Shown here: one piece after another, positions 33,662-48,353 of the stretch
How the letters are laid out: each line of letters begins with the position of its first letter
How positions within the stretch are numbered: position 1 is the first letter of the stretch
Assembly: GCA_002375205.1 (NCBI GenBank)
Contig: DFLL01000040.1
Coordinates: 1 to 58,383, forward strand
Source: Bacillales bacterium UBA3620
Lineage (GTDB): Bacteria > Bacillota_I > Bacilli_A > RF39 > UBA660
Direction of reading: 5' to 3'
Length of the DNA: 58,383 nucleotides
The notes under the pieces: generated by a model
What the model was told of the DNA's origin: nothing
Database searches by the model: none
The model's input: only the letters and a program-made list of their open reading frames with translations
Position numbers and translations under genes: made by a program

Positions 33662-34602
33662 TACTTCTTTGCCTTCTTTCTTTCTACCATCTTATTTTGA
33701 AAAATAGTAAACGCTGATGATGATATCCAATATAATCCTAATGCTACCGGTAAACTAAATGAAGCAAATACTATCATAGCTAGCATAAAGTAGATTGTTC
33801 CCTTCATTTGAGCTGCCATAGCAGTCTGATCTTTTAATGTTTTCTTAAATGATAAATATGTTGTTCCTAATATGATTAGTAAAAATAATACATATATATA
33901 CCATCTACCAGACATTATTCCGTGAGATATAGTCGTTCCCATATCTAATCCTAAAAATTTATTTTCAAATATAACTGGAGTTCTATTTATTGCTTCTAGA
34001 TAAGCAAATAATAAAGGTATTTGAACAAATGATAATAGACAACTAGATAATGGATTTATTTTGTTTTTTTGATAAATAGCCATCATTTCTTGGGCTTTCA
34101 TCTTTTGGTCATTTTCATCTGTCTTATCTTTATATTTCTTTTCCAATTTGTCTATTTCTGGTTTTACAGCATTCATCTTCTCAGATTGCATAGCAGTCTT
34201 TCTTGTTAATGGATACATTACTAATCTTATTACTATACAAGATAATATGATTGCCAATCCATTAGCTAACCCTTTGCTTAATCCAATCTTTCCAAGTACT
34301 ACACCAGTATTTATTAAAATCCATGCTAGAGGTTTTACAAATATAGTTGTCCATAAACCTTCATACTCTGAAAAAGGTTTAAATTCAGTACATTTTGGTA
34401 GTTCATCTATATTTACTCCATTATCTTCATATAGTTTTATTACATCCTTATTAGTAGGTCTGCATACTATATTTTCAGTAAGTGCCTTACCGGTTTCTTC
34501 ATATTTTACTACTTTTTTATCTTCTCCTACTAACTGTTTTGTACACCCAGTAAGTAAGAATACAGACAATACTATTAATAGTATTTTTATACTTTTCTTC
34601 AC
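33661..34602 (-). CDS. yidC: membrane protein insertase YidC/SpoIIIJ (lipoprotein type)
   Basis: It has the lipobox LLTGC and a conserved Oxa1 core (MQSEKMNAVKPEIDKLEKKYK, INPLSSCL). Confidence 0.92.
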   Translation of the reverse strand: MKKSIKILLIVLSVFLLTGCTKQLVGEDKKVVKYEETGKALTENIVCRPTNKDVIKLYEDNGVNIDELPKCTEFKPFSEYEGLWTTIFVKPLAWILINTGVVLGKIGLSKGLANGLAIILSCIVIRLVMYPLTRKTAMQSEKMNAVKPEIDKLEKKYKDKTDENDQKMKAQEMMAIYQKNKINPLSSCLLSFVQIPLLFAYLEAINRTPVIFENKFLGLDMGTTISHGIMSGRWYIYVLFLLIILGTTYLSFKKTLKDQTAMAAQMKGTIYFMLAMIVFASFSLPVALGLYWISSSAFTIFQNKMVERKKAKK

Positions 34603-34931
34603 TTTTTATCACCTATATTTTTTATTAGCATTAACAATTCCTTTTCTATATCAAGATACGTTAATTCTAATAATCCTTTCCTAATAATTATAACATAATC
34701 ATAACTACTTTGCATACTATTTTTATTATTATCGATAATGTTTTTTATCCTTCTTTTTATTTTGTTTCTAATTACTGCTTTTCCAGTCTTCTTAGGGATT
34801 GATATTCCATATCTATTTTTATTATTGTTTTTACGATAATAGATACTGAAATTATTGCTCTTTATCTTTTTACCTTTATTTATTATTTCAGTATATTCCC
34901 TTGATGACTTTATGATATCTTCTTTCTTCAT
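34599..34931 (-). CDS. rnpA: ribonuclease P protein component
   Basis: It is basic, carries the KAVIRNKIKRRIK motif, and sits downstream of rpmH. Confidence 0.88.
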   Translation of the reverse strand: MKKEDIIKSSREYTEIINKGKKIKSNNFSIYYRKNNNKNRYGISIPKKTGKAVIRNKIKRRIKNIIDNNKNSMQSSYDYVIIIRKGLLELTYLDIEKELLMLIKNIGDKK

Positions 34932-34961
34932 ACTATAAAAAAAGAAAAAAAGAAAACAAAA

Positions 34962-35084
34962 TTATGCACATAATTTTTTTCTTTTTTTAGTTCTTCTATT
35001 CTTCAAAACATTACCTTTTACTCTTGCAAAGAAACCATGCTTTTTAGCTTTTTTTCTGTTATTAGGTTGATAAGTTCTTTTCAT
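34962..35084 (-). CDS. rpmH: 50S ribosomal protein L34, 40 aa (not in the ORF track)
   Basis: The translation is [47 protein letters not shown] lies 9 nt upstream. Confidence 0.88.
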
Positions 35085-35204
35085 AATTAAAACACCTCCA
35101 TGTCAAATGCTCTTTTATTATATAGTTTAATTTAGTTTCTGTCAATAATTTTCTAACTATTTTTTTAATTATACATTGTTCTAGGTATTGTAATCGCCAC
35201 TATT

Positions 35205-35255
35205 GTTGCACTTCATATTTAAATTAATCATAGTTGCACTTCATATTTAAATTAA
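35205..35255 (+). repeat. two exact 23-bp direct repeats GTTGCACTTCATATTTAAATTAA, 28 bp apart
   Basis: The copies are at 35205-35227 and 35233-35255. A degenerate third copy (CATATTTGACATTTTAAATTAC) overlaps the -35. Confidence 0.9.
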
Positions 35256-35260
35256 CATAT

Positions 35261-35289
35261 TTGACATTTTAAATTACATTTAATATAAT
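35261..35289 (+). promoter_or_regulatory. consensus sigma-A promoter: TTGACA, 17-nt spacer, TATAAT
   Basis: TTGACA is at 35261-35266 and TATAAT at 35284-35289, about 25 nt upstream of the ATG at 35314. Confidence 0.75.
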
Positions 35290-35313
35290 ATATGTTATTT
35301 GAGGAGAAATACT

Positions 35314-35964
35314 ATGAATAAAAATTTAGTTAATAAATATAAAAAAGAATTGACAGCATATACTTTTCCGGAAAGTAAATACTATATGCTTATGAATGAA
35401 AAGTCAAAAAAAAATGAGGTACTTAATGAAGTCTTTAATAGAAATGTCTTTGCAAACACTCCTAGTGACTATTATATGAACAATGGTAAAATTATATATT
35501 ATAATTCTTTAAAAGAGGTAAATAATAATATAATTGAGTGGATTGAAATTTTTAGCATGAAAGCTAGCCTTACAGATAATGAACGAAATATTTATTCATT
35601 ATATGTAGAAACGTTAAATAAAATAATTGATGAGATTAAAACTTATGCTAGACTATGTACATTAAAATATAATCTTAAATTTGCTATTGATGATACTATT
35701 AATTGTACTCTAGTTAAAACATATATTGGTATATTATGGGAGAGAAAACTTAAAATTAATAATAAGCTCAGAATAATAATAGAAAACGAATCATCTCTTT
35801 GCTATACTGATTATATAGATGAACTATTGAAAATACGTGATATCTACAGTACCAAACTACTTTGTATGGAAGATGAATGTGAAGAAATATATGATGAATT
35901 TAGAAATATAGTTAGAGAAATACTAAACGTTAAAAAAATAGTTAAAAAGAAAGGAAATACATAA
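35314..35964 (+). CDS. hypothetical protein, 216 aa, family not recognised
   Basis: The ATG at 35314 follows GAGGAG. It lies directly downstream of the consensus promoter at 35261-35289. Confidence 0.55.
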   Translation: MNKNLVNKYKKELTAYTFPESKYYMLMNEKSKKNEVLNEVFNRNVFANTPSDYYMNNGKIIYYNSLKEVNNNIIEWIEIFSMKASLTDNERNIYSLYVETLNKIIDEIKTYARLCTLKYNLKFAIDDTINCTLVKTYIGILWERKLKINNKLRIIIENESSLCYTDYIDELLKIRDIYSTKLLCMEDECEEIYDEFRNIVREILNVKKIVKKKGNT

Positions 35965-35968
35965 AAAA

Positions 35969-36337
35969 ATGGAAATCGAGCAAAATATATTAAAGGAAAT
36001 TGCAATTGAATATTTTGATATTGGTGATGAAGAAAAATTTAATAATGACTGGAAAAACTTTATTTACTGCTACGAAAGAATGAGAAATTGTTCATGTGTT
36101 AAAGCTAAAGATTTATATAGTTTTATTGATGCATTATATCTTGTTGCTTCTGATATAGCTAGCGACGATTTTTTTAAAACAACTGTGGATTTGTATGGAA
36201 ATAGATTCTATAATTATGCGGAAAAACATAAATCATTAGAAGATATGGTTGATGATGCTTTATATAGAATATATGATGAAGATGCTATTCCTAGTTTATC
36301 AGAGCAATATATTCGCATTAAGAAGCTTGAAAGATAG
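35969..36337 (+). CDS. hypothetical acidic protein, 122 aa
   Basis: It starts 4 nt after the upstream stop and is followed by a terminator-like hairpin with a T-run at about 36349-36390. Confidence 0.5.
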   Translation: MEIEQNILKEIAIEYFDIGDEEKFNNDWKNFIYCYERMRNCSCVKAKDLYSFIDALYLVASDIASDDFFKTTVDLYGNRFYNYAEKHKSLEDMVDDALYRIYDEDAIPSLSEQYIRIKKLER

Positions 36338-39503: not shown

Positions 39504-40367
39504 ATGAATGAATTACAAGTTATTAGTAATCAAGAAATTGAGAAAATGATTTTTGAAGTAAGAGGTAAGTTTGTTATGTTAGATAGTGATATAGCAAATC
39601 TTTATCATGTAGAAACAAAGAGAGTAAATGAAGCTGTTAAAAATAATTTAACAAAGTTCCCTGAGCGTTATTCCTTTAAACTTACTGATGAAGAATCAAA
39701 AAATCTTTTGGTCGAAAATTTCGACCAAAAAAAAGAAACTCGAGGAGGCAGATATAAAAATCCAAGAGTGTTTACAGAAGAAGGTGCTTTAATGCTCAGT
39801 ACTGTACTTAAAAGTAAATAAGCTATTAATACTAGTATTGCTATTACTGATGCTTTTGTTGCTATGAAGAAGTATATCTCTTCTAATCTAATAGAACAAA
39901 GATTTATTAATAATATGGTATTAGAACATGATAATGATATTAAACTACTTAAAGAATCTTTTTCAAAATTTGATAGTATGAGTAATGAGATATTTTATGA
40001 AGGACAGATATATGATGCTTATTCATTATTATTGGATATAATAAATAGTTCTAAAGAAAGTATTATAATTATCGATAATTTTGCTAATAAGAAATTATTT
40101 GATTTACTATCTAAAACTAATAAGGAAATAACTGTTTATAGTAAAAATATCGATGAAGATCTAATTAATAAATATAAGAAGCAATATAATAACGTTACTT
40201 TAATACATAATGATAGTTACCATGATAGATTTATTATTATTGATAATAAAACATTATATCACTGTGGATCTTCATTTAAAGACTTGGGTACTAAATGTTT
40301 TTGTATTAGTAAAATTGAAAATCAAGAATTAATTAGAGATATGTTATCTATTATAAAAAGCAAATAA
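39504..40367 (+). pseudogene. ORF6N-family paralog copy 1, interrupted by an in-frame TAA at 39819-39821
   Basis: The two track ORFs (39504-39821 and 39864-40367) are collinear and in frame with the intact copies 2 and 3. The sequence reads ...VLKSK*AINTSIAITDAFVAMKKY... Confidence 0.7.
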
Positions 40368-40385
40368 TAATTGGAGGTATTTGGT

Positions 40386-41255
40386 ATGAATGAGTTACAA
40401 GTAATTGATAATATTAAAATTGAAGATATGATTTATGAGATAAGAGGTAAGTTTGTTATGTTAGATAGTGATATAGCAAACCTTTATCACGTTGAAACAA
40501 AAAGAGTAAATGAGGCTGTAAAAAATAACCCCAAAAAATTTCCAGAACAGTATTCTTTTATATTATCTAGTGATGAATATAAATCTCTAAGGTCGAAAAT
40601 TTCGACCTTAGAAGTAAAAAATACTGGTAAAGGGCATTATAGAAAATATTTACCAAGGGTTTTTACTGAAGAAGGATGTTTAATGCTTGGAACTGTTCTG
40701 AAAAGTGATGTTGCAGTGAATACCACATTACTTGTAATTGAAGCTTTTGTCGCTATGAAGAAGTATATCTCTTCTAATCTAATAGAACAAAGATTTATTA
40801 ATAATATGGTATTAGAACACAATGAACGAATCAGATTATTGGAAGATAATTTTAATAAAAAATCTTTTAGTAATGAAATATTCTATGAAGGACAAATATA
40901 TGATGCTTATTCATTATTATTGGATATAATAAATAGTTCTAAAGAAAGTATTATAATTATCGATAATTTTGCTAATAAGAAATTATTTGATTTACTATCT
41001 AAAACTAATAAGAAAGTAACAGTATATAGTAAAAATATTGATGAAGAACTAATTAATAAATATATGAAACAGTATAATAACGTTACTTTAATACATAATG
41101 ATAGTTACCATGATAGATTTATTATTATTGATAATAAAACATTATATCACTGTGGATCTTCATTTAAAGACTTGGGTACTAAATGTTTTTGTATTAGTAA
41201 GATAGAAAATCAAGAACTAATTAGAGATATGTTATCTATTATAAAAAGCAAATAA
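40386..41255 (+). CDS. ORF6N-domain protein (KilA-N-related DNA-binding N-terminus) with a C-terminal HDRFIIID...GSSFKDLG module, copy 2
   Basis: ORF6N-like motifs are present: VMLDSDIANLY...KRVNEAVKNN..FP and LPRVFTEEG. The ATG at 40386 follows GGAGG. Confidence 0.75.
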   Translation: MNELQVIDNIKIEDMIYEIRGKFVMLDSDIANLYHVETKRVNEAVKNNPKKFPEQYSFILSSDEYKSLRSKISTLEVKNTGKGHYRKYLPRVFTEEGCLMLGTVLKSDVAVNTTLLVIEAFVAMKKYISSNLIEQRFINNMVLEHNERIRLLEDNFNKKSFSNEIFYEGQIYDAYSLLLDIINSSKESIIIIDNFANKKLFDLLSKTNKKVTVYSKNIDEELINKYMKQYNNVTLIHNDSYHDRFIIIDNKTLYHCGSSFKDLGTKCFCISKIENQELIRDMLSIIKSK

Positions 41256-41273
41256 TAATTGGAGGTATTTGGT

Positions 41274-42149
41274 ATGAATGAGTTACAGGTAATTGACAAC
41301 ATTAAAATTGAAGATATGATTTATGAGGTAAGAGGGAAGCAAGTTATGCTAGATTCTGATTTGGCAAAAATTTATCATTGTAAGAATGGCACAAAAGAGA
41401 TTAACCAAGCAGTTAAAAGAAATATAAATAGATTCCCTGAAGAATTTTGCTTTCAACTCTCAGAAGACGAATACTCACTTTTGAAGTCACAATTTGTGAC
41501 TTCAAAAAATAAAGGTCGCGGTGGAGTTAGAAAACTACCATATGTTTTTACCGAACATGGAGTGATTATGCTTTCTAGTGTAATAAAAAGTGATGTTGCT
41601 GCTAAAACTAATGTAGCAATAATTAATGCTTTTATAAAAATGAAAAAGTATGTTTCTTCTAATTTATTGGAACAAAGGTTTATTAACAATATGGTATTAG
41701 AACATGATAATGATATTAAACTACTTAAAGAATCTTTTTCAAAATTTGATAGTATGAGTAATGAGATATTTTATGAAGGACAAATATATGATGCTTATTC
41801 ATTATTATTAGATATATTAAATAGTTCTAAAGAAAGTATTATAATTATCGATAATTTTGCTAATAAAAAGTTATTTGATTTACTATCTAAAACTAATAAG
41901 GAAGTAACTGTTTATAGTAAAAATATTGATGAAGAACTAATTAATAAATATATGAAACAGTATAATAACGTTACTTTAATACATAATGATAGTTACCATG
42001 ATAGATTTATTATTATCGATAAAAAAGTATTATATCACTGTGGATCATCATTTAAGGATCTAGGTACTAAATGCTTTTGTATTAGTAAGATAGAAAATCA
42101 AGAACTAATTAGAGATATGTTATGTAGTATTAGTCTAAATAACAGGTAA
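41274..42149 (+). CDS. ORF6N-domain protein with a C-terminal HDRFIIID...GSSFKDLG module, copy 3
   Basis: It matches the canonical ORF6N pattern: VMLDSDLAKIY, INQAVKRNINRFPEEFCFQLSEDEY, LKSQFVTS, LPYVFTEHGVIMLSSV. Confidence 0.8.
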   Translation: MNELQVIDNIKIEDMIYEVRGKQVMLDSDLAKIYHCKNGTKEINQAVKRNINRFPEEFCFQLSEDEYSLLKSQFVTSKNKGRGGVRKLPYVFTEHGVIMLSSVIKSDVAAKTNVAIINAFIKMKKYVSSNLLEQRFINNMVLEHDNDIKLLKESFSKFDSMSNEIFYEGQIYDAYSLLLDILNSSKESIIIIDNFANKKLFDLLSKTNKEVTVYSKNIDEELINKYMKQYNNVTLIHNDSYHDRFIIIDKKVLYHCGSSFKDLGTKCFCISKIENQELIRDMLCSISLNNR

Positions 42150-42195: not shown

Positions 42196-42438
42196 TTATT
42201 CTTTAAAAAAGTCATCTATTTTCTTATTTAATATTAGAGATAATTTATATACTAATGTTAGTGAACAGTTTTTTCTACTGTCACCTGGTGACTCTAATCT
42301 TTTTAAATAATCAGGACTAACATCTAGAATTTCTGCTAAATCCATTAATTTAAGTCCTTGTTCTTTTCGATATTTTTTAATATTTTTACATATTATTTCT
42401 CTATAATTATGATTAAATCCATCTATTTCTTTTATCAT
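42196..42438 (-). CDS. XRE-family helix-turn-helix transcriptional regulator, 80 aa
   Basis: It has a Cro/C1-type HTH (IKKYRKEQGLKLMDLAEILDVSPDYLKRLE) and lies 3 nt downstream of the preceding ORF. Confidence 0.8.
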   Translation of the reverse strand: MIKEIDGFNHNYREIICKNIKKYRKEQGLKLMDLAEILDVSPDYLKRLESPGDSRKNCSLTLVYKLSLILNKKIDDFFKE

Positions 42439-42441
42439 TTA

Positions 42442-43044
42442 TTATTCCTTTATTTCTTCCACAATACTAGCAGTCCCCTCAAATAAATACTCATATATAG
42501 GATTATCAGTATTACTTTGATTCCAATACAATATAGCCTTTTCTTTCTTTTTATTTAAAGAAATACTCTCTCTTAATATGTAATTAGCATCACCTTTAAA
42601 TATTTTACCAGTTAATTCTAATTTAAATATTCGATATTCTTTTTTATTAGTTCTATTAAATATATCTATCCAGGTAGATAATTCTTCTAGTGATTTAGTA
42701 ACAAATAAACATTTTAATCTAGAAGGTAAATCTATATTAATTTCTTTTCTGACTTCTTCAATAATTAATTCTCTTGTTATAAAAGCATCATTACTTATTG
42801 TCTTTAATACAGTATTTAAATCATTAATAGAATTAAAATTTAACTTTCTATTATTAAACATATTTAATAATATTTGATTAGCATCTAAATTATCATTATT
42901 CTTATATTCACTATCATAGATACTATAATAAAAATAATTATATTTATCAGTAGTAATTATATCTCCAATATTTAATTCATTATTAGTACATATATGATAA
43001 TAATATTCTTTATTTACTTCTTTCAAAGTACTACCTTCTTTCAA
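42442..43044 (-). CDS. hypothetical protein, ~195-200 aa, start uncertain
   Basis: It is an intact ORF with TTG starts only. The TTG at 43026 follows GAAGGT, whereas the TTG at 43044 has no SD. No family was recognised. Confidence 0.45.
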   Translation of the reverse strand: MKEGSTLKEVNKEYYYHICTNNELNIGDIITTDKYNYFYYSIYDSEYKNNDNLDANQILLNMFNNRKLNFNSINDLNTVLKTISNDAFITRELIIEEVRKEINIDLPSRLKCLFVTKSLEELSTWIDIFNRTNKKEYRIFKLELTGKIFKGDANYILRESISLNKKKEKAILYWNQSNTDNPIYEYLFEGTASIVEEIKE

Positions 43045-43128: not shown

Positions 43129-45765
43129 ATGGAAACTATACTAAAAAATAATGCTGAACTAATAAGTGATACTCAAATTTATGAAAATTTAAGAAGAACT
43201 TCTAAAAAGGGATTAATATCATTAATTAATAAAAATCAATTAATCGACTTAGCACTAAAATATTTTGGTGTTTATGATGATAATCATACTTTAATGGGAT
43301 ATACTTGTCCTTATAGTGGAAGACTTATTACTGATTTTTCAGAGTTAGAATTAGAGCATATAATACCAATATCATCTAATGGTGGTACTGCTTTATTTAA
43401 TTGTATTCCAGCATCAAAAGAAGTTAACGGGTTCAGAGAAAAAAGTAACAAAAATCTAATTGAATGGTGGGCAAATAGTAAATATTGGGATAGTGATGCT
43501 CCAAAAAGATTAGAAAAATTAGTTAATTATATTCTAGATGGATATAAAATTGTTTTTAAAGAATATACAGCAGAAGAAGTGGAAACATCATATTTATCTA
43601 TGAACATCAATGGTAATATTCTAAAAGATGATGATGATTTAACAATTGGTAAATTGAAAAAGAAGAAAATTGATAAAGAAAGAAAAATTCAATCCTATCT
43701 AGGATTCTTAAATCAATGTATTGCTCAATTGAATAATAACAATATTGATACAAATCAAATAAGTGACAAAATAGAAAGTCTTGAAGCAAACAATATTTTT
43801 CAGGATATTGATAGATATACATTATTCCAAAATATTTTACAAAAATGTATTAAAGAGAGAATTAATGAAAATGACAGAAGTTATTTAAGATATTCATTAA
43901 ACCTTGACATAATGAAACTAATGAAATCTATATCTTCTAGTAATAAGGGTGAAATTTATAATGAAATAAGCAATAGACTTACAAATATAGAAACCTTATT
44001 AAATAAAAATAATCTTAGTTTAATCGACTATTTTGAAAGTTTAACCGATATCTCTGACAATAATATTATTTATAAAAACATTTCAGAGATTAGTGATGAA
44101 AATATAAATATATTTATAAAAAAAATAAAAGTTGTTTTTTCATCAAAAGTAAATATTTTTATTGAAATGCTTAATAATGGTAATAGCAATGTATTAATGT
44201 ATAGAAATAATGAAACTTTTAATGGGCATCCTAATATTCCTATTGGAACTTTTTGGAGTCATAATCGCACCTTTATATTATCCAAGCTTAATGATAGTGA
44301 TATTGTTGCAAAGCAATTAATTAATGAGTGGAATTTTAGTAATGATTTGGAAGCAAAAACTAAGGTTTTTATTGAAATGCTTAATAATGGTAATAGCAAT
44401 ATATTAATGAAAAGAAATAATGAAACTTTTAATAGACATCCTAATATTCCTATTGGAAAGTTTTGGGAAACTAATCGTGACTTCATAGTGTCTAAACTTA
44501 AAGATAGTGATACTGTTGCAAAGAAAATAATTAGCGAGTGGAATTTTAGTAATGATTTGGAAGCAAAAACTAAGGTTTTTATTGAAATGCTTAATAATGG
44601 TAATAGCAATATATTAATGAAAGGAAATAATGAAACTTTTAATAGACATCCTAATATTCCTATTGGACAGTTTTGGAGTTCTAATCGCGAGTTCATAGTG
44701 TCCAAACTTATAGATAGTGATACTGTTGCAAAGAAATTAATTAATGAGTGGAACTTTAGTAATGATTTGGAAGCAAAAACTAAGGTTTTTATTGAAATGC
44801 TTAATGATGGTAATAGCAATATATTAATGCAAAGAAATAATGAAACTTTTAATGGGCATCCTAATATTCCTATTGGATCTTTTTGGAGTAATAATCGTAA
44901 TTTTATAGTGTCTGAACTTAAAGATAGTGATACTGTTGCAAAACAATTAATTAATGAATGGAATTTTAGTAATGATTTAGAAGCAAAAGCTAAGGTTTTT
45001 ATTGAAATGCTTAATGATGGTAATAGCAATATATTAATACAAAAAAACAATGAAACTTTTAAAGGACATCCTAATATTCCTATTGGACAGTTTTGGAGTA
45101 CTAATCGCGACTTCATAGTGTCTAAACTTAAAGATAGTGATACTGTTGCAAAACAATTAATTAATGAATGGAATTTTAGTAATGATTTAGAAGCAAAAAC
45201 TAAGGTTTTTATTGAAATGCTTAATGATGGTAATAGCAATATATTAATACAAAAAAACAATGAAACTTTTAATGGGCATCCTAATATTCCTATTGGATTC
45301 TTTTGGAGTAATAATCGCCCCTTTATATTATCCAAGCTTAATGATAGTGATATTGTTGCAAAGCAATTAATTAATGAGTGGAATTTTAGTAATGATTTGG
45401 AAGCAAAAACTAAGGTTTTTATTGAAATGCTTAATAATGGTAATAGCAATATATTAATGAAAGGAAATAATGAAACTTTTAATAGACATCCTAATATTCC
45501 TATTGGACAGTTTTGGAGAACTAATCGTGATTTTATATTATCCAAACTTTTTATTGTATTAAAAGATAATGCTTTTCATGATAAGGCACGTCAAACTGTA
45601 TTAAATTATTATAAAGTAAACAGTATTGAAGAATATTATCAAAAGCAAGAAGCCAAAAAGAAAAAATCATCTGAGGTAAAAAAGTTAAGAAAAATAAAAG
45701 CAGAACTAGAAAATTATCAAGATTCATTAGAAATTGATCAAAAGGATAATAGAAAGAGAGCATAA
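43129..45765 (+). CDS. HNH endonuclease-domain protein fused to a 6.7x tandem 70-aa repeat array (HA-domain-like)
   Basis: The HNH-like motif is CPYSG...ELEHIIPISSNGGTALFNCIPASKEVN. The repeats have an exact 210-bp period. Confidence 0.8.
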   Translation: METILKNNAELISDTQIYENLRRTSKKGLISLINKNQLIDLALKYFGVYDDNHTLMGYTCPYSGRLITDFSELELEHIIPISSNGGTALFNCIPASKEVNGFREKSNKNLIEWWANSKYWDSDAPKRLEKLVNYILDGYKIVFKEYTAEEVETSYLSMNINGNILKDDDDLTIGKLKKKKIDKERKIQSYLGFLNQCIAQLNNNNIDTNQISDKIESLEANNIFQDIDRYTLFQNILQKCIKERINENDRSYLRYSLNLDIMKLMKSISSSNKGEIYNEISNRLTNIETLLNKNNLSLIDYFESLTDISDNNIIYKNISEISDENINIFIKKIKVVFSSKVNIFIEMLNNGNSNVLMYRNNETFNGHPNIPIGTFWSHNRTFILSKLNDSDIVAKQLINEWNFSNDLEAKTKVFIEMLNNGNSNILMKRNNETFNRHPNIPIGKFWETNRDFIVSKLKDSDTVAKKIISEWNFSNDLEAKTKVFIEMLNNGNSNILMKGNNETFNRHPNIPIGQFWSSNREFIVSKLIDSDTVAKKLINEWNFSNDLEAKTKVFIEMLNDGNSNILMQRNNETFNGHPNIPIGSFWSNNRNFIVSELKDSDTVAKQLINEWNFSNDLEAKAKVFIEMLNDGNSNILIQKNNETFKGHPNIPIGQFWSTNRDFIVSKLKDSDTVAKQLINEWNFSNDLEAKTKVFIEMLNDGNSNILIQKNNETFNGHPNIPIGFFWSNNRPFILSKLNDSDIVAKQLINEWNFSNDLEAKTKVFIEMLNNGNSNILMKGNNETFNRHPNIPIGQFWRTNRDFILSKLFIVLKDNAFHDKARQTVLNYYKVNSIEEYYQKQEAKKKKSSEVKKLRKIKAELENYQDSLEIDQKDNRKRA
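44146..45549 (+). repeat. in-frame 210-bp tandem repeat, 6 full copies plus 1 partial
   Basis: Unit starts are at 44146, 44356, 44566, 44776, 44986, 45196 and 45406. Each encodes K(T/A)KVFIEMLN(N/D)GNSNIL...IPIGxFWxxNRxF...EWNFSNDLEA. Confidence 0.95.
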
Positions 45766-45767
45766 TT

Positions 45768-45968
45768 ATGGAGAATAATATTTATAATTTAGATGATTAT
45801 TATAAAGCATTAAAATTACAGGATGATTATGAAAAAGATGTTATTGATGAAGATGAAATATCTTTAGAAGAATATGATGAATTAATTAAACTTTATAAAA
45901 TACAGATAAGAAAACTTGCTGATGATATTAATTATAGGATTAAATTATTACAAAGAGGTGATAAGTAA
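45768..45968 (+). CDS. small acidic coiled-coil protein, 66 aa
   Basis: It starts 2 nt after the upstream stop, and its stop overlaps the next start (TAATG). Confidence 0.5.
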   Translation: MENNIYNLDDYYKALKLQDDYEKDVIDEDEISLEEYDELIKLYKIQIRKLADDINYRIKLLQRGDK

Positions 45969-46420
45969 TGTTAGAAAGTGTTTATTATTATTTAAAAGAA
46001 TTTGGATTTAATGATAAAGAAATTGATTTTTTTGAAGATGAAAATGAGGATATGTTTTCTACTAATAACATTGAAATAGAAAAGAATATTAATTTTTTAT
46101 TTGAAAAAGGATTAGAACATGAAGAAGTACTTGATGTTATTAGAAAAAATCCTGATATGCTTACTGTTAAAAATAATAGATTGGAAGCTTATGACAAGAT
46201 ATTTAATAATGAATTAGATATGGATAATGATATGATTAAAAAATTAATTATATCTTACCCTGATACTTATGTAGAAAGCCCTATTGATTTACAAAATATT
46301 ATTAATTATTTAAAAGAAAAAAAATATGATAAAGAATATATTAAAAATTTAATAATTGATAATCCTAAAATTATTAGTATGGATTTATCTGAATTTGAAA
46401 AAGAAATAATACTTAAATAG
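45968..46420 (+). CDS. helical-repeat protein resembling mTERF repeats, 150 aa
   Basis: Four ~30-aa units follow the pattern (F/Y)L.E.G(F/L)...I...I...P.(M/I)(L/I): YLKEFGFNDKEI, FLFEKGLEHEEVLDVIRKNPDMLTV, MIKKLIISYPDTYV, YLKEKKYDKEYIKNLIIDNPKIISM. Confidence 0.5.
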   Translation: MLESVYYYLKEFGFNDKEIDFFEDENEDMFSTNNIEIEKNINFLFEKGLEHEEVLDVIRKNPDMLTVKNNRLEAYDKIFNNELDMDNDMIKKLIISYPDTYVESPIDLQNIINYLKEKKYDKEYIKNLIIDNPKIISMDLSEFEKEIILK

Positions 46421-46428
46421 GAGTTATT

Positions 46429-47421
46429 ATGAAAAGAGAATTATTTGAGAAAAGAAAAGAAGAATTTAAGAAAATTGTTTTAGAAGAAGGTAATTTGCCT
46501 AAAGTTGGTATGCGTAAATTTTCTGATAGAGATGACGCTAGAATATGGTTTAACAAGATATATAATTCAAGTTTGTTTAAAGATTTTATTGGTGAAATAA
46601 ATAATATTTTAAGTAATTATGGATTAATGGTATTAGATGATAAAGCTAAAGAGGAAGAATTTCTTGAGACAATTAATATAATTGGAAGAATACCTTTTAA
46701 AGGTGAATTATATTTTTCTGACAATGATGAAATGTATATGTGGTATTTTAATCATAAAGTTAAAAATCCTTCTTTTGAAACTATAGTACACAATAATTTA
46801 AAAGAATATCAAGATTTTGATTTAGCTACTGAATGGTCTAATATAAAAAAAGAGTTTATCTATACAATTAAATTAATAAAAAGAATACCAGAACATGGAG
46901 AGTGTTTTACACAAAATGGTATTGATATTAGGGTAATATATGATAAACTTCAAACTTTTGATCCGCAGTTTATAGAAAAATTATTGTTACATCTTCAAAC
47001 ATATAATAAAAAGGGTTTATCTTCTGAAGATAGAGAAAAAGAATTTTTAGAATGTGTATCAAAATTAGGTTATATACCATTTCTTCAAGAAGCAAGATTC
47101 TCTGATAAAACAGATATGTTTACTTGGTATAATAAATATAGGTTAAAGATAGTTAATTTTGAATTAGAAGTACAAAGAAGAATAAAAGTAGATAAGCCAA
47201 TTAGAAAAATTAATATATATTTGGTTCCAAATTTTAAAACTAGAGGTGGAAAGTTTTATACAGTATGTTCTAATGAAGGTGAAATTTTAGATTTATCTGG
47301 AATATTCACATATGAAGAAATGAAAGAAAAGGATAATACTTTTGCTAAAAGGGGCGGAATTATCTTAAAACAAGATGAAGAATTAGATACTGTAAATATT
47401 GTGAAAGGAAAAATTAAATAA
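46429..47421 (+). CDS. protein with four degenerate helicase-associated (HA)-like repeats, 330 aa
   Basis: Four repeated units are visible: FKKIVLEEGNLPKVGMRKFSDRDDARIWFNKIY, FLETINIIGRIPFKGELYFSDNDEMYMWYFNHK, FIYTIKLIKRIPEHGECF...IRVIYDKL, FLECVSKLGYIPFLQEARFSDKTDMFTWYNKYR. Confidence 0.55.
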   Translation: MKRELFEKRKEEFKKIVLEEGNLPKVGMRKFSDRDDARIWFNKIYNSSLFKDFIGEINNILSNYGLMVLDDKAKEEEFLETINIIGRIPFKGELYFSDNDEMYMWYFNHKVKNPSFETIVHNNLKEYQDFDLATEWSNIKKEFIYTIKLIKRIPEHGECFTQNGIDIRVIYDKLQTFDPQFIEKLLLHLQTYNKKGLSSEDREKEFLECVSKLGYIPFLQEARFSDKTDMFTWYNKYRLKIVNFELEVQRRIKVDKPIRKINIYLVPNFKTRGGKFYTVCSNEGEILDLSGIFTYEEMKEKDNTFAKRGGIILKQDEELDTVNIVKGKIK

Positions 47422-47699
47422 TGAAAATAAATGCATTAGATAATAATGGTAAATCTAAAGAATATGATGTTATTCTTACTTACTATAGCGATGAATATAA
47501 TAAGAACTATATTGTTTATACTGATGATGTCTATAATGACAAAGAGGAACTAAATATATATATTAATGAATATACTGATAATCCGGAAGTGATTTCTAAA
47601 CCTATTCAAGATAAAGCTGAATATACAAAAGTAAAGACTGCTGTTAATGAATTACTTTTAATTATGAAAAATGAAAGTGATAAATTGGAAACAAATTAA
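47421..47699 (+). CDS. DUF1292-like small acidic protein
   Basis: The pattern (D.NG...EY.V...Y..E....Y.VYTDD) resembles DUF1292. Its start overlaps the upstream stop (TAATG). Confidence 0.5.
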   Translation: MKINALDNNGKSKEYDVILTYYSDEYNKNYIVYTDDVYNDKEELNIYINEYTDNPEVISKPIQDKAEYTKVKTAVNELLLIMKNESDKLETN

Positions 47700-47720: not shown

Positions 47721-48353
47721 ATGAAAATAGTAAATAAAGTGAATAGAAGTAATATAAATAGCCTTCTAGTTAACGAAGGTCAGAGTAAAATGAGTGAATC
47801 TATGATAGAATTTGCTAAGTCTATACCTGAAATAAATAAAGTAGAGGATTTAAAAGTATTAGATAGATTGTTTTATGAATATTTTACAAGAGATAAGAAT
47901 ACTAAAAAATTTGAATCTATTGCAGAACAAATTTTTGATAGAAAAACTTTTTCTGGATGTTCTGATATAGGATTAGCTATATCTCCACTACTTAGACATA
48001 AGGGGATACCTACCGTATATGTTGAAAGTGCTAGTATAGAATGGATAAAAGATATACAAGAAGATAATGAAAATAAAGAACTAATGAAAGGACATATCTT
48101 TTTAGAAATATACTTAAATAACAAATGGTACTTATATGATCCTACTTTTCATTTGGTATATGATAATTATGATTATAATAATTTATGCCTACCAAGAAAT
48201 TATTATGTATTTGCTAAAGCAATGAATTCATTTGATTTAGATGTACATAGTGTTAAAGATGAAAAAGAATTAGCTACTAATGTACTTAAAGATTTTGATA
48301 TTTCAACTTACACTAATCCAAATTATAAAGAATATAATTTGAAAAAAAAATAA
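47721..48353 (+). CDS. transglutaminase-like cysteine-protease-fold protein
   Basis: A candidate Cys-His-Asp triad sits in the canonical context: FSGCSDIGLA...LLRHKGIPT, KGHIFLEIYLNNKWYLYDPT. Confidence 0.6.
   Translation: MKIVNKVNRSNINSLLVNEGQSKMSESMIEFAKSIPEINKVEDLKVLDRLFYEYFTRDKNTKKFESIAEQIFDRKTFSGCSDIGLAISPLLRHKGIPTVYVESASIEWIKDIQEDNENKELMKGHIFLEIYLNNKWYLYDPTFHLVYDNYDYNNLCLPRNYYVFAKAMNSFDLDVHSVKDEKELATNVLKDFDISTYTNPNYKEYNLKKK

What the first reader, a model, noticed from the sequence alone, without database searches (positions are those of the whole stretch)
43129..45765. HNH nuclease fused to an array of near-identical 70-aa repeats whose substitutions cluster at a few positions
Seen in sequence:
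- An HNH-type motif (CPYSG...ELEHIIPISSNGGTALFNCIPASKEVN) sits at the N-terminus of an 878-aa ORF.
- From codon 340 onward there are 6 complete and 1 partial head-to-tail copies of a 70-aa unit. The period is exactly 210 bp, with unit starts at 44146, 44356, 44566, 44776, 44986, 45196 and 45406.
- The units are almost identical at the DNA level. The amino-acid differences are concentrated around the invariant core IPIG-x-FW-xx-NR-x-F.
- Unit position 35 reads T/K/Q/S/Q/F/Q across the seven copies. Positions 38-39 read SH/ET/SS/SN/ST/SN/RT. Position 42 reads T/D/E/N/D/P/D. Positions 19-20 and 27 show smaller variation.
- Non-adjacent repeats share blocks. R1 and R6 share FILSKLNDSDIVAKQ. R3 and R7 share ILMKGNNETFNRHPNIPIGQFW. 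This implies intragenic recombination.

Inference: the F..L...G...P...G.FW..NR pattern resembles the helicase-associated (HA, PF03457-type) helical module. A conserved scaffold with a few hypervariable residues per unit is the same design logic as TALE or PPR arrays. Fusion to a nuclease suggests modular recognition of a nucleic-acid target. I know of no characterised HNH-HA-array protein.
Basis: partly seen in the sequence, partly recalled or inferred. Interest (0 to 1): 0.85.

Follow-up and report, generated by a model that had tools for sequence, protein, structure and literature searches.

The report
Nuclease with hypervariable repeat recognition array
An uncultured gut bacterium encodes a DNA-cutting enzyme fused to seven near-identical 70-residue modules that differ almost only at a few exposed positions, which looks like a natural, fast-evolving "programmable" targeting array of a kind not yet described, although its target has not been shown.

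Summary
ORF 43129-45765 (878 aa) has a Cas9-type HNH motif followed by seven 210-bp units.

Substitutions cluster at unit positions 19-20, 35, 38, 39 and 42. At codons 35/38/39/42 dN is 0.92, against dS 0.22 and dN 0.045 elsewhere. The same columns are the most variable within 15 other lineages (P<=1e-5).

In an AlphaFold model (pLDDT 89) each unit is helix, beta-hairpin, two helices. The variable residues sit just before the hairpin and on one face (i, i+3, i+4, i+7) of the helix after it. They are mostly His, Gln, Ser and Asn.

The repeat is rare (117 clusters among 1.84 billion). It has no Pfam model and no structural match. It also occurs fused to SF2 helicases and to mTERF. Membership of the HA family (PF03457) was tested and not met.

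The gene sits in a conserved cassette: acidic mTERF-like protein, small acidic protein, a 330-aa protein with related repeats, and DUF1292. In other genomes the cassette lies next to large serine recombinases, and in one it lies inside an element that splits a PBP gene and also carries AbiE.

Best reading: a nuclease aimed by a modular, diversifying recognition array, probably for nucleic acid, in a conflict or defence cassette. Target and activity are untested.

The parts
43129..45765 (+). Whole gene: 878-aa HNH nuclease with repeat array
   Evidence: ORF. 41 homologues share the same N-terminal domain followed by repeats.
43129..44145 (+). Conserved N-terminal domain (aa 1-339): short N-terminal helices, HNH core, then a helical domain of unknown role (aa ~110-339)
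   Evidence: 16-sequence alignment at 50% mean column identity. AlphaFold model pLDDT 75.5. The only structural or sequence matches are HNH domains.
43306..43452 (+). HNH (beta-beta-alpha-metal) nuclease motif, aa 60-108: CPYSG...LEHIIP...LFNCIP...EVN
   Evidence: Pfam PF13395 HNH_4, E 4e-5, 23.9 bits against cut-off 22. Profile hit to PDB 4h9d, E 8e-4. C60, P61, Y62, G64, H77, N91 and N100 are invariant. PHROG HNH / endonuclease VII families, E 8e-6.
44146..45405 (+). Repeat units 1-6, exactly 210 bp (70 aa) each
   Evidence: Each unit is modelled as helix A, short helix, beta-hairpin, helix B, helix C.
45406..45627 (+). Repeat unit 7 (aa 760-833), complete, with the ancestral longer second half (LF..LKD....D.AR..VL.Y)
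   Evidence: Unit HMM match 760-833, the best-scoring unit. Same second half as in all units of P0010-P0015.
44248..44271 (+). Example (unit 1) of the main hypervariable patch: codons 35, 38, 39 and 42 of the unit. It recurs every 210 bp; codons 19-20 and 27 of each unit are the secondary patch.
   Evidence: Per-codon counts. dN 0.92 against 0.045 elsewhere. Top-ranked columns family-wide. Mapped to the N-cap and the i+3, i+4, i+7 face of helix B.
45628..45765 (+). C-terminal long helix and basic tail ending RKRA
   Evidence: Modelled helix at model residues 497-530. C-terminal [RK][RK]x[AVM] is conserved across most homologues.
45768..45968 (+). Acidic 66-aa protein (net charge -7), cassette member
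   Evidence: A similar 66-78-aa acidic ORF lies directly downstream of the nuclease gene in 6 of the 10 other loci examined (L002, L005, L006, L008, L009, L017). 70- and 72-aa ORFs occupy the same position in L019 and L020. No family hit.
45968..46420 (+). mTERF-like 150-aa protein, very acidic (net -16), cassette member
   Evidence: Pfam PF02536, E 1.6e-10, 40.9 bits against cut-off 23.1. Adjacent to the nuclease gene in L002-L011 and in L017, L019, L020 and L021. Charge.
46429..47421 (+). 330-aa protein with four degenerate repeats related to the array unit plus a conserved C-terminal domain; cassette member
   Evidence: 56-60% identical across loci. hhalign of short-type units against its repeats: 89.8%, E 1.8e-6. 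HMM i-E 1.4e-6.
47421..47699 (+). DUF1292 protein (92 aa), cassette member
   Evidence: Pfam PF06949, E 1e-5. Follows the 330-aa gene in 8 loci. Unannotated 96- and 94-aa ORFs occupy the same position in L019 and L021.

Best explanation
**Shown**
- The gene encodes a Cas9/McrA-type HNH nuclease domain with all catalytic residues.
- It is followed by seven copies of an unnamed 70-residue alpha/beta module.
- The modules are kept nearly identical by recombination between units.
- Four to six residues per module are under diversifying selection. These are the loop before the hairpin, the residue capping helix B, and the i+3, i+4, i+7 face of helix B.
- These residues are polar, differ from unit to unit, and turn over between close strains.

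**Inferred**
- Each module is a reading head, and the array as a whole chooses the substrate on which the nuclease acts.
- The substrate is most likely DNA or RNA, because the same module is also fused to SF2 helicases and to mTERF.
- Unit gain, loss and conversion, together with substitutions at the variable positions, re-programme specificity.
- The long C-terminal helix may pair two molecules.
- The co-transcribed acidic partners (66-aa protein, mTERF-like protein) may restrain or assist the nuclease.
- The cassette lies beside serine recombinases in two genomes. In one of them it lies inside an inserted element that also carries AbiE. In the window it lies beside a candidate defence gene cluster. 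It therefore most likely serves genetic conflict: defence against, or competition between, mobile elements.
For: - **HNH:**
- **Repeat anatomy:**
- **Diversifying selection in the window:**
- **Same hypervariable columns elsewhere:** in 15 independent lineages their mean rank is 13 against 37.5 expected, P<=1e-5, and diversity is 0.76 against 0.33.
- **Strain variants:** all 8-10 residue differences lie in the array. The isolated ones are at unit positions 35, 39, 20 and 20. The other cassette parts are conserved: N-terminal domain 92-94% and mTERF 95-97%.
- **Unit-to-unit diversity:** 20 distinct variable 'words' in 22 units of four close relatives.
- **Residue make-up:** variable positions are enriched in His 4.6x, Gln 3.1x and Ser 2.7x, and depleted in hydrophobics.
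- **Other architectures:** the same repeat occurs in SF2 helicases (P0046, P0052, P0057, P0109), in an mTERF fusion (P0081), and with the nuclease domain preceded by an N-terminal extension (P0063).
- **Module swapping:** the same N-terminal nuclease module carries different repeat types in sister proteins.
- **Cassette synteny:**
- **Mobile-element cargo:** in L019 the cassette and AbiEi/AbiEii lie in a ~10.5-kb insertion that splits a PBP gene and ends in a serine recombinase. In L021 it lies next to TnpV and a serine recombinase. In the window it lies next to PDC-S05 paralogues.
Against: - No binding or cleavage has been measured.
- The array has net charge about 0 and its partners are acidic, which is not what a classical DNA-binding protein looks like.
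- No known nucleic-acid-binding fold matches the unit.
- The inter-unit geometry of the model is uncertain (pTM 0.54). I could not inspect coordinates, so the claim that the variable residues share one face rests on helical periodicity.
- No PADLOC defence model matches.
- No relatives were found in viral contigs.
- Several loci lie among housekeeping genes.
- Some strain differences could be short-read assembly chimeras between units.
Confidence: 0.55

Rival explanations
1. The array is a sensor for proteins, for example phage proteins, rather than for nucleic acid. Binding would switch on the HNH domain, which then cuts DNA non-specifically, as in abortive-infection sensors with repeat domains.
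For: - Diversifying selection on exposed polar residues fits protein recognition equally well.
- The array is uncharged and the partners are acidic.
- The cassette travels with AbiE on a mobile element.
- No DNA-binding fold was detected.
Against: - The same repeat is fused to SF2 helicases and to mTERF, which are nucleic-acid enzymes or binders.
- There is no NTPase switch domain of the kind usual in such sensors.
- A hairpin followed by a helix with variable i, i+3, i+4, i+7 positions is a typical groove-reading layout (comparison from general knowledge of zinc fingers).
Confidence: 0.2
2. The protein is a lineage-specific housekeeping factor for RNA or DNA processing. It would work with the mTERF-like, 330-aa and DUF1292 proteins on a fixed cellular substrate such as rRNA or tRNA precursors or the replication origin region.
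For: - The window locus lies between parAB and dnaD/dnaI/dnaE near rnpA-rpmH.
- The helicase version of the repeat sits after rplS-trmD-rimM.
- The partners are strongly conserved.
Against: - A fixed substrate does not explain unit-specific hypervariability, turnover of variable residues between 92-94% identical strains, or variable unit number.
- The cassette occupies different genomic sites and is cargo of a serine-recombinase element.
- Some genomes hold two or three copies.
Confidence: 0.1
3. The repeat is simply a diverged helicase-associated (HA, PF03457) domain, so this is an ordinary HNH protein with HA repeats. This concerns ancestry and is compatible with the best explanation.
For: - The motif resembles HA by eye: helix, G-x-x-P, then G-x-[FW]-[WV]-x-x-[NQ]-[RK].
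- The repeat is found in helicases.
- Sister proteins with the same nuclease module carry repeats that hit PF03457 below threshold (17.8 and 22.9 bits against 28.4).
- The best BFVD match of the array is a giant-virus helicase, E 0.016.
Against: - No unit hits PF03457 at E<=10, and neither does the full protein.
- hhalign of the unit profile against the HA-like repeats gives 0.2-3.5% probability.
- The unit contains a beta-hairpin.
Confidence: 0.3
4. The pattern is an artefact. Either short-read assembly of a tandem repeat produced chimeric units, or a diversity-generating retroelement writes the variable codons.
For: - Exact inter-unit matches of up to 143 bp could mislead an assembler.
- One relative has only 3 units and another has five identical units.
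Against: - Four assemblies give the same 7-unit protein.
- More than 100 family members from many samples show the same design.
- The reading frame and the scaffold are under purifying selection (dN/dS about 0.2).
- There is no extra copy of the unit that could serve as a template repeat in the 58-kb window.
- Variable codons differ at all four bases.
Confidence: 0.03

Closest known systems
TALE, BurrH and MOrTL repeat arrays (and PUF/PPR arrays)
   Same: - Tandem, almost identical units are homogenised at the DNA level.
- Variation is confined to a few fixed positions per unit.
- Unit number varies between relatives.
- The variable positions are polar and exposed.
   Different: - The unit is 70 aa and alpha/beta (three helices plus a hairpin), not a 33-36-aa helical hairpin.
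- There are four to six variable residues per unit, not one or two.
- No sequence or structure similarity was found.
- No binding code is known.
- It is naturally fused to a nuclease.
C2H2 zinc-finger arrays
   Same: - A beta-hairpin is followed by a helix whose N-cap and one face carry the variable residues. Here these are i, i+3, i+4, i+7; zinc fingers use -1, 2, 3, 6.
- Several specificity residues per unit suggest that each unit reads more than one base.
   Different: - There are no zinc ligands.
- The unit is 2.5 times larger, with two further helices.
- It is bacterial.
- The resemblance is one of layout only, drawn from general knowledge, and was not tested by structure comparison of a single unit.
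Cas9/IscB-type and stand-alone HNH nucleases (Pfam HNH_4; Gme HNH nicking enzyme 4h9d)
   Same: - The HNH core has its catalytic His and two Asn.
- From my recollection of the SpCas9 sequence, the spacing His +14 Asn +23 Asn is the same as H840/N854/N863.
   Different: - There is no RuvC domain, no guide-RNA apparatus and no CRISPR array.
- Targeting would be done by a protein array.
Helicase-associated (HA, PF03457) repeats
   Same: - Repeats of about 60-70 aa occur in tandem at the C-terminus of helicases.
- The motif pattern is similar.
- Sister nucleases carry HA-like repeats that score below threshold.
   Different: - The Pfam model does not detect the unit.
- The profile-profile link is absent.
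- HA itself has no established function or code.
Organellar helical-repeat proteins fused to nucleases (PPR-SMR, PRORP, FASTK/OPR-RAP)
   Same: A modular repeat array that selects a nucleic-acid substrate is joined to a nuclease-type domain (general knowledge).
   Different: - Those proteins are eukaryotic, organellar and act on RNA, with different repeats and nuclease folds.
- They are conserved housekeeping factors, not fast-evolving mobile cargo.

Membership tests
HNH_4 / beta-beta-alpha-metal nucleases (PF13395) | Profile score at or above Pfam's gathering score | tested here: met
   23.9 bits against 22 on aa 1-339. Exactly 22.0 on the full protein. 14 of 36 homologues also match.
HNH_4 / beta-beta-alpha-metal nucleases (PF13395) | Catalytic His and the Asn/Asn metal-site residues present and conserved | tested here: met
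   H77, N91 and N100 are invariant in 36 sequences. They align to the DH...N...N of PDB 4h9d.
HNH_4 / beta-beta-alpha-metal nucleases (PF13395) | Beta-beta-alpha fold | tested here: inconclusive
   The model has strands 55-59, 73-77 and 92-96 and helix 102-105. Foldseek finds only Cas9 HNH and 4h9d, but weakly (E 0.2, probability up to 0.72).
HNH_4 / beta-beta-alpha-metal nucleases (PF13395) | Metal-dependent nuclease activity | not testable with these tools
   Needs biochemistry.
Helicase-associated domain (HA, PF03457) | Profile match to PF03457 | tested here: not met
   No hit for the full protein or a single unit at E<=1. None of 39 diverse units hits at E<=10. Only two sister proteins with other repeats score, and below threshold.
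Helicase-associated domain (HA, PF03457) | Profile-profile link to HA-like repeats | tested here: not met
   hhalign probability 0.2% and 3.5%.
Helicase-associated domain (HA, PF03457) | Occurrence in helicase proteins | tested here: met
   The repeat is present in SF2 helicases P0046, P0052, P0057 and P0109.
TALE-like / PUF / PPR code arrays | Near-identical tandem units with variation confined to fixed positions | tested here: met
TALE-like / PUF / PPR code arrays | Homology or shared fold (alpha-solenoid of 33-36-aa helical hairpins) | tested here: not met
   No Pfam hit. The unit is 70 aa and alpha/beta. No Foldseek match at E<0.8 in the PDB.
TALE-like / PUF / PPR code arrays | Sequence-specific nucleic-acid binding with a unit-by-unit code | not testable with these tools
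   Needs SELEX or a structure.
Known anti-phage defence systems (PADLOC-DB 2.0) | Match of any cassette protein to a defence model | tested here: not met
   No hit for the nuclease, the 66-aa protein, the mTERF-like protein or the 330-aa protein. Only the upstream ORF6N paralogues match candidate PDC-S05.
Diversity-generating retroelement targets | Nearby template repeat and reverse transcriptase | tested here: not met
   No further copy of the unit in the 58-kb window. A reverse transcriptase was not searched for exhaustively.
mTERF (PF02536), for the neighbouring 150-aa gene | Profile score above the gathering score | tested here: met
   40.9 bits against 23.1, E 1.6e-10. All 23 homologues that span the full query carry PF02536.

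The most novel reading that the evidence does not exclude
The 70-residue module is a new protein scaffold for programmable nucleic-acid recognition. Residues 19-20, 35, 38, 39 and 42 of each unit spell a readable code for a few bases, and unit order spells the target. On this reading the protein is a natural counterpart of engineered TALE or zinc-finger nucleases. Mobile elements of gut Bacillota would use it, with its acidic mTERF-like and small partners as regulators or inhibitors, as a protein-guided immune or inter-element warfare system. It would re-target through repeat shuffling rather than through guide RNAs.
Probability: 0.3. Interest if true: 0.93.

Novelty: new variant of a known kind. 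Interest (0 to 1): 0.8.

Why it matters
- **A possible new recognition scaffold.** Modular repeat proteins with a readable code (zinc fingers, TALEs, PUF, PPR) are few, and each became a tool. This is a candidate fifth scaffold. It comes already joined by nature to a nuclease and, in relatives, to helicases.
- **Clear signatures of selection.** The specificity positions show diversifying selection, and there is a ready comparative data set of more than 100 arrays with different variable residues.
- **A different route to re-targetable immunity.** If the cassette is a defence or inter-element weapon, prokaryotes would have a protein-guided route to re-targetable immunity alongside RNA-guided ones.
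- **Bacterial mTERF.** The cassette also places mTERF-like proteins in bacteria, where a recent survey reports none (PMC12977773). They sit in a defined genetic context that can be tested.

Tried and rejected
- **HA assignment.** I scanned the full protein, single units, 39 diverse units and 36 homologues against Pfam. I ran hhalign against the HA-like repeats of sister proteins. Neither linked the unit to HA.
- **Structural neighbours of the array.** Nothing below E 0.8 in the PDB. The best BFVD match is a pithovirus helicase at E 0.016.
- **Sequence search of the unit profile against the PDB.** Only chance-level hits: COMMD1 at 0.07 and PadR at 0.13.
- **Structural neighbours of the N-terminal model.** Only weak HNH matches. 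The helical domain at aa 110-339 stays unassigned.
- **Defence, NCBIfam and PHROG libraries.** No family matches the array or its partners. The many small 'hits' to the array, such as ApoC-I, have no significant single stretch. They are sums over repeats and were disregarded.
- **Viral contigs.** No relatives of the nuclease module. The unit alignment was too variable for that tool.
- **Diversity-generating retroelement or silent cassettes.** No extra unit copy in the window.
- **Literature.** Searches for HA domains, bacterial mTERF, TALE-like screens and repeat-guided defence found no description of this family. The VIPR systems (10.64898/2026.04.26.720920) share the logic of a scaffold with hypervariable positions, but they are RNA pentanucleotide repeats and are unrelated.
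- **Promoter scan.** Uninformative at 26% G+C: 69 sites found against 62 expected.
- **Model coordinates.** I could not obtain them, so the spatial clustering of variable residues across units was not checked.
Full report
**1. The observation**

ORF 43129-45765 (+) encodes 878 aa. Tandem Repeats Finder reports a 210-bp period, 6.6 copies, 90% matches and no indels at 44156-45549.

The blocks shared by non-adjacent units are exact 143-bp DNA matches, between units 1 and 6 and between units 3 and 7. This supports recombination within the gene.

One correction is needed. Unit 7 is a full unit (HMM match aa 760-833, the best-scoring of the seven). Its second half (LF..LKD....D.AR..VL.Y) is the form found in every unit of distant homologues. 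Units 1-6 carry a shorter derived second half.

**2. Is the clustering of substitutions real?**

Among the units, the mean synonymous difference is 0.20 per site and the non-synonymous difference 0.085. Codons 35, 38, 39 and 42 have dN 0.92. The 64 codons outside 19, 20, 35, 38, 39 and 42 have dN 0.045 at dS 0.215.

Thirteen of 34 minimal amino-acid state changes fall in these four codons (binomial 2e-8). Those columns were picked after looking at this protein, so I tested them elsewhere.

- I aligned 168 units from 19 family proteins to a unit HMM. Within-protein diversity ranks columns 19, 35, 38, 39 and 20 first, and column 42 seventh.
- In the 15 lineages outside the window's own clade, the six columns have mean rank 13 of 74, against 37.5 expected (permutation P<=1e-5). 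Their diversity is 0.76, against 0.33 for the rest.
- The pattern is visible by eye in windows around the invariant FW.

The refutation test that the variable columns might be no more variable than the synonymous rate therefore fails. They are about four times more variable.

**3. Micro-evolution**

Three proteins from other assemblies are 99% identical to the window's. All of their 8-10 differences lie inside the array. Unit 4 is replaced by a copy of unit 5, and the isolated changes sit at unit positions 35, 39, 20 and 20.

Over 22.6 kb the window and contig L015 differ at 70 bases. Seventeen are in the array, 50 are in the tandem ORF6N paralogues and 3 are elsewhere.

Relatives whose N-terminal domain is 92-94% identical, and whose neighbouring mTERF gene is 95-97% identical, have 4-6 units and almost wholly different variable residues. 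There are 20 distinct 'words' in 22 units.

Part of this could be assembly chimerism between units, so long reads are needed.

**4. The nuclease**

- Pfam HNH_4 matches aa 60-108 (23.9 bits, cut-off 22).
- A 16-sequence profile of the N-terminal domain hits the solved Gme HNH nicking endonuclease 4h9d (E 8e-4), with CxY.G...DH..P...N...N aligned.
- C60, P61, Y62, G64, H77, N91 and N100 are invariant in 36 homologues.
- The AlphaFold model (pLDDT 75.5) has the expected strands and helix. Its only structural neighbours are Cas9 HNH domains and 4h9d, and these are weak.
- Residues 110-339 form a conserved helical domain with no match.

**5. The repeat unit**

An AlphaFold model of aa 337-878 is confident locally (pLDDT 89) but less so globally (pTM 0.54). 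I mapped its secondary structure onto the sequence. Each unit reads as follows:

- helix A (FIEMLN);
- a short helix;
- a loop (positions 18-20);
- a beta-hairpin (21-25 and 28-34, turn at 26-27);
- position 35 as the N-cap;
- helix B (36-47, starting with the invariant FW and carrying N40-R41);
- helix C.

The variable residues are therefore the loop before the hairpin, the hairpin turn, and positions i, i+3, i+4 and i+7 of helix B. The last four form one helical face. I could not obtain coordinates, so clustering in space across units is inferred and was not measured.

Family-wide, these positions are enriched in His (4.6x), Gln (3.1x) and Ser (2.7x) and depleted in hydrophobic residues.

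**6. What family is the repeat?**

No Pfam, NCBIfam, PADLOC or PHROG model describes it. No PDB sequence or structure matches it.

An exhaustive profile search of 1.84 billion representative proteins finds only 117 with E<=0.001. Many of these are fragments. The full-length ones show several other architectures:

- SF2 helicases (ResIII/DEAD/Helicase_C) with C-terminal repeats;
- a fusion to mTERF;
- the nuclease domain preceded by an N-terminal extension (P0063);
- repeat-only proteins.

Proteins with the same N-terminal nuclease module can instead carry other repeats. Two of these give sub-threshold HA (PF03457) scores. The window's unit itself is not linked to HA, either by HMM or by profile-profile comparison.

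**7. Genomic context**

The window is chromosomal and close to the replication-origin gene set (jag, yidC, rnpA, rpmH, parA, parB; then dnaD-like, dnaI-like, dnaE). G+C is 26%. The closest named records are uncultured Firmicutes, Bacilli and Erysipelotrichaceae genomes from rumen and gut.

Downstream genes are packed with gaps of at most 21 bp, and no terminator-like site lies on the + strand before 48353.

| Gene (window) | Size | Key feature | Conservation across related loci |
|---|---|---|---|
| Small acidic protein, 45768-45968 | 66 aa | Net charge -7 | Similar 66-78-aa acidic ORF directly downstream in 6 of the 10 other loci examined; 70- and 72-aa ORFs at the same position in L019 and L020 |
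| mTERF-like protein, 45968-46420 | 150 aa | Net charge -16 | Adjacent to the nuclease gene in L002-L011 and in L017, L019, L020 and L021 |
| 330-aa protein, 46429-47421 | 330 aa | Four degenerate repeats related to the array unit | 56-60% identical across loci |
| DUF1292 protein, 47421-47699 | 92 aa | Pfam PF06949 | Follows the 330-aa gene in most loci |
| Transglutaminase-like protein, 47721-48353 | 210 aa | Sub-threshold Pfam hit | Not found in the other loci |

Sources. The four repeats of the 330-aa protein are related to the array unit (hhalign 89.8%, E 1.8e-6).

The cassette occupies different sites in different genomes.

- **L019:** together with AbiEi/AbiEii, it lies inside an insertion of about 10.5 kb that splits a penicillin-binding-protein gene. 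The two fragments align to residues 1-415 and 429-634 of an intact orthologue, and the insertion ends with a large serine recombinase.
- **L021:** it abuts TnpV and a serine recombinase.
- **L020:** it is near KilA-N/HTH genes.
- **The window:** it follows four ORF6N-family genes. The one scanned matches the PADLOC candidate system PDC-S05 (E 6e-93).

Some genomes carry two or three copies.

**8. Interpretation**

Shown:
- an intact HNH nuclease module;
- a rare, unnamed repeat whose units are homogenised except at a defined, exposed, polar patch under diversifying selection;
- rapid turnover of that patch and of unit number;
- reuse of the repeat by helicases and mTERF;
- a conserved cassette that lies beside recombinases and, in one genome, inside an inserted element.

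Inferred:
- the patch is a binding surface, and each unit is a reading head;
- the ligand is nucleic acid (about 0.55-0.6 in my estimate), with the array positioning the nuclease;
- the acidic partners regulate or inhibit it;
- the biological role is genetic conflict.

The main rival is that the array senses proteins. A fixed housekeeping substrate is hard to reconcile with the variability and mobility. Artefact and retroelement explanations are unlikely.

**9. Comparison with known systems**

In logic it resembles TALE, PUF and PPR arrays and, in local layout, C2H2 zinc fingers. In fold and sequence it matches none of them. The nuclease is of the Cas9/IscB HNH type but has no RNA-guide apparatus.

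I found no description of this family in the searchable literature. I classify it as a new variant of a known kind, namely modular repeat recognition arrays joined to an effector. There is a realistic chance (about 0.3) that it is a truly new programmable protein-guided nuclease system.

Noticed in passing
window 45968-46420: A bacterial mTERF-like protein: PF02536, 40.9 bits against cut-off 23.1. It is unusually acidic (net -16 in 150 aa) and always lies next to the nuclease gene. A 2026 survey states that mTERF genes are absent from bacteria (PMC12977773). One relative of the repeat family (P0081) fuses the repeat to mTERF in one protein.
   Followed up: partly
window 39504-42149: Four tandem ORF6N-family genes, two of them truncated. 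The full-length one scanned (41259-42149) matches the PADLOC candidate defence system PDC-S05 (E 6e-93). Between the window and a 99.7% identical contig (L015), 50 of the 70 base differences lie here, which suggests conversion among paralogues.
   Followed up: partly
window 46429-47421: A 330-aa protein with four internal degenerate repeats (pattern EF..x..G.IP....FSD..DM..WY). They are distantly related to the array unit (hhalign 89.8%). A strongly conserved C-terminal domain of unknown function follows. The protein is 56-60% identical across loci in which the nuclease proteins are only about 30% identical.
   Followed up: partly
L019:6435-16984: An insertion of about 10.5 kb splits a PBP2x-type gene. 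It carries AbiEi/AbiEii, the whole nuclease cassette and several small ORFs, and it ends with a large serine recombinase. This is reminiscent of gene-interrupting excisable elements in spore-formers.
   Followed up: partly
window 45628-45765 and homologues: The extreme C-terminus is conserved across the family as a basic motif ([RK][RK]x[AVM], here RKRA) after a long predicted helix. It may be a docking peptide or a dimerisation element. No explanation was found.
   Followed up: no
window 42196-43044 (- strand): A divergently oriented pair, DUF2441 (E 7e-40; PHROG families at E 3e-19) and a small HTH_3 regulator, lies directly upstream of the nuclease gene. It has the look of a two-gene accessory or toxin-antitoxin-like module.
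   Followed up: no
window 34599-36337: The jag-yidC-rnpA(-rpmH) cluster is followed not by dnaA but by two ORFs without any Pfam hit (35299-35964 and 35969-36337), and then by parA and parB.
   Followed up: no
window 44259-45545 (- strand): A 428-aa ORF on the opposite strand of the array is a shadow of the repeat: the same stop-free frame is repeated every 210 bp. It is not evidence of a second gene.
   Followed up: partly
protein P0027 (locus L020:2547-5573): A homologue has five consecutive 103-aa units with identical residues in the 26-residue window around the FW motif, that is, no variable residues there. It is either a very recent expansion or a collapsed or duplicated assembly.
   Followed up: no
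proteins P0028-P0033 and P0038 (for example L021:9001-11046): Sister nucleases with a different repeat of about 125 aa show variation at the equivalent place (LG-x-[FY]-x-x-x-[IL]). The design of a variable helix start seems to recur in a second repeat type.
   Followed up: no
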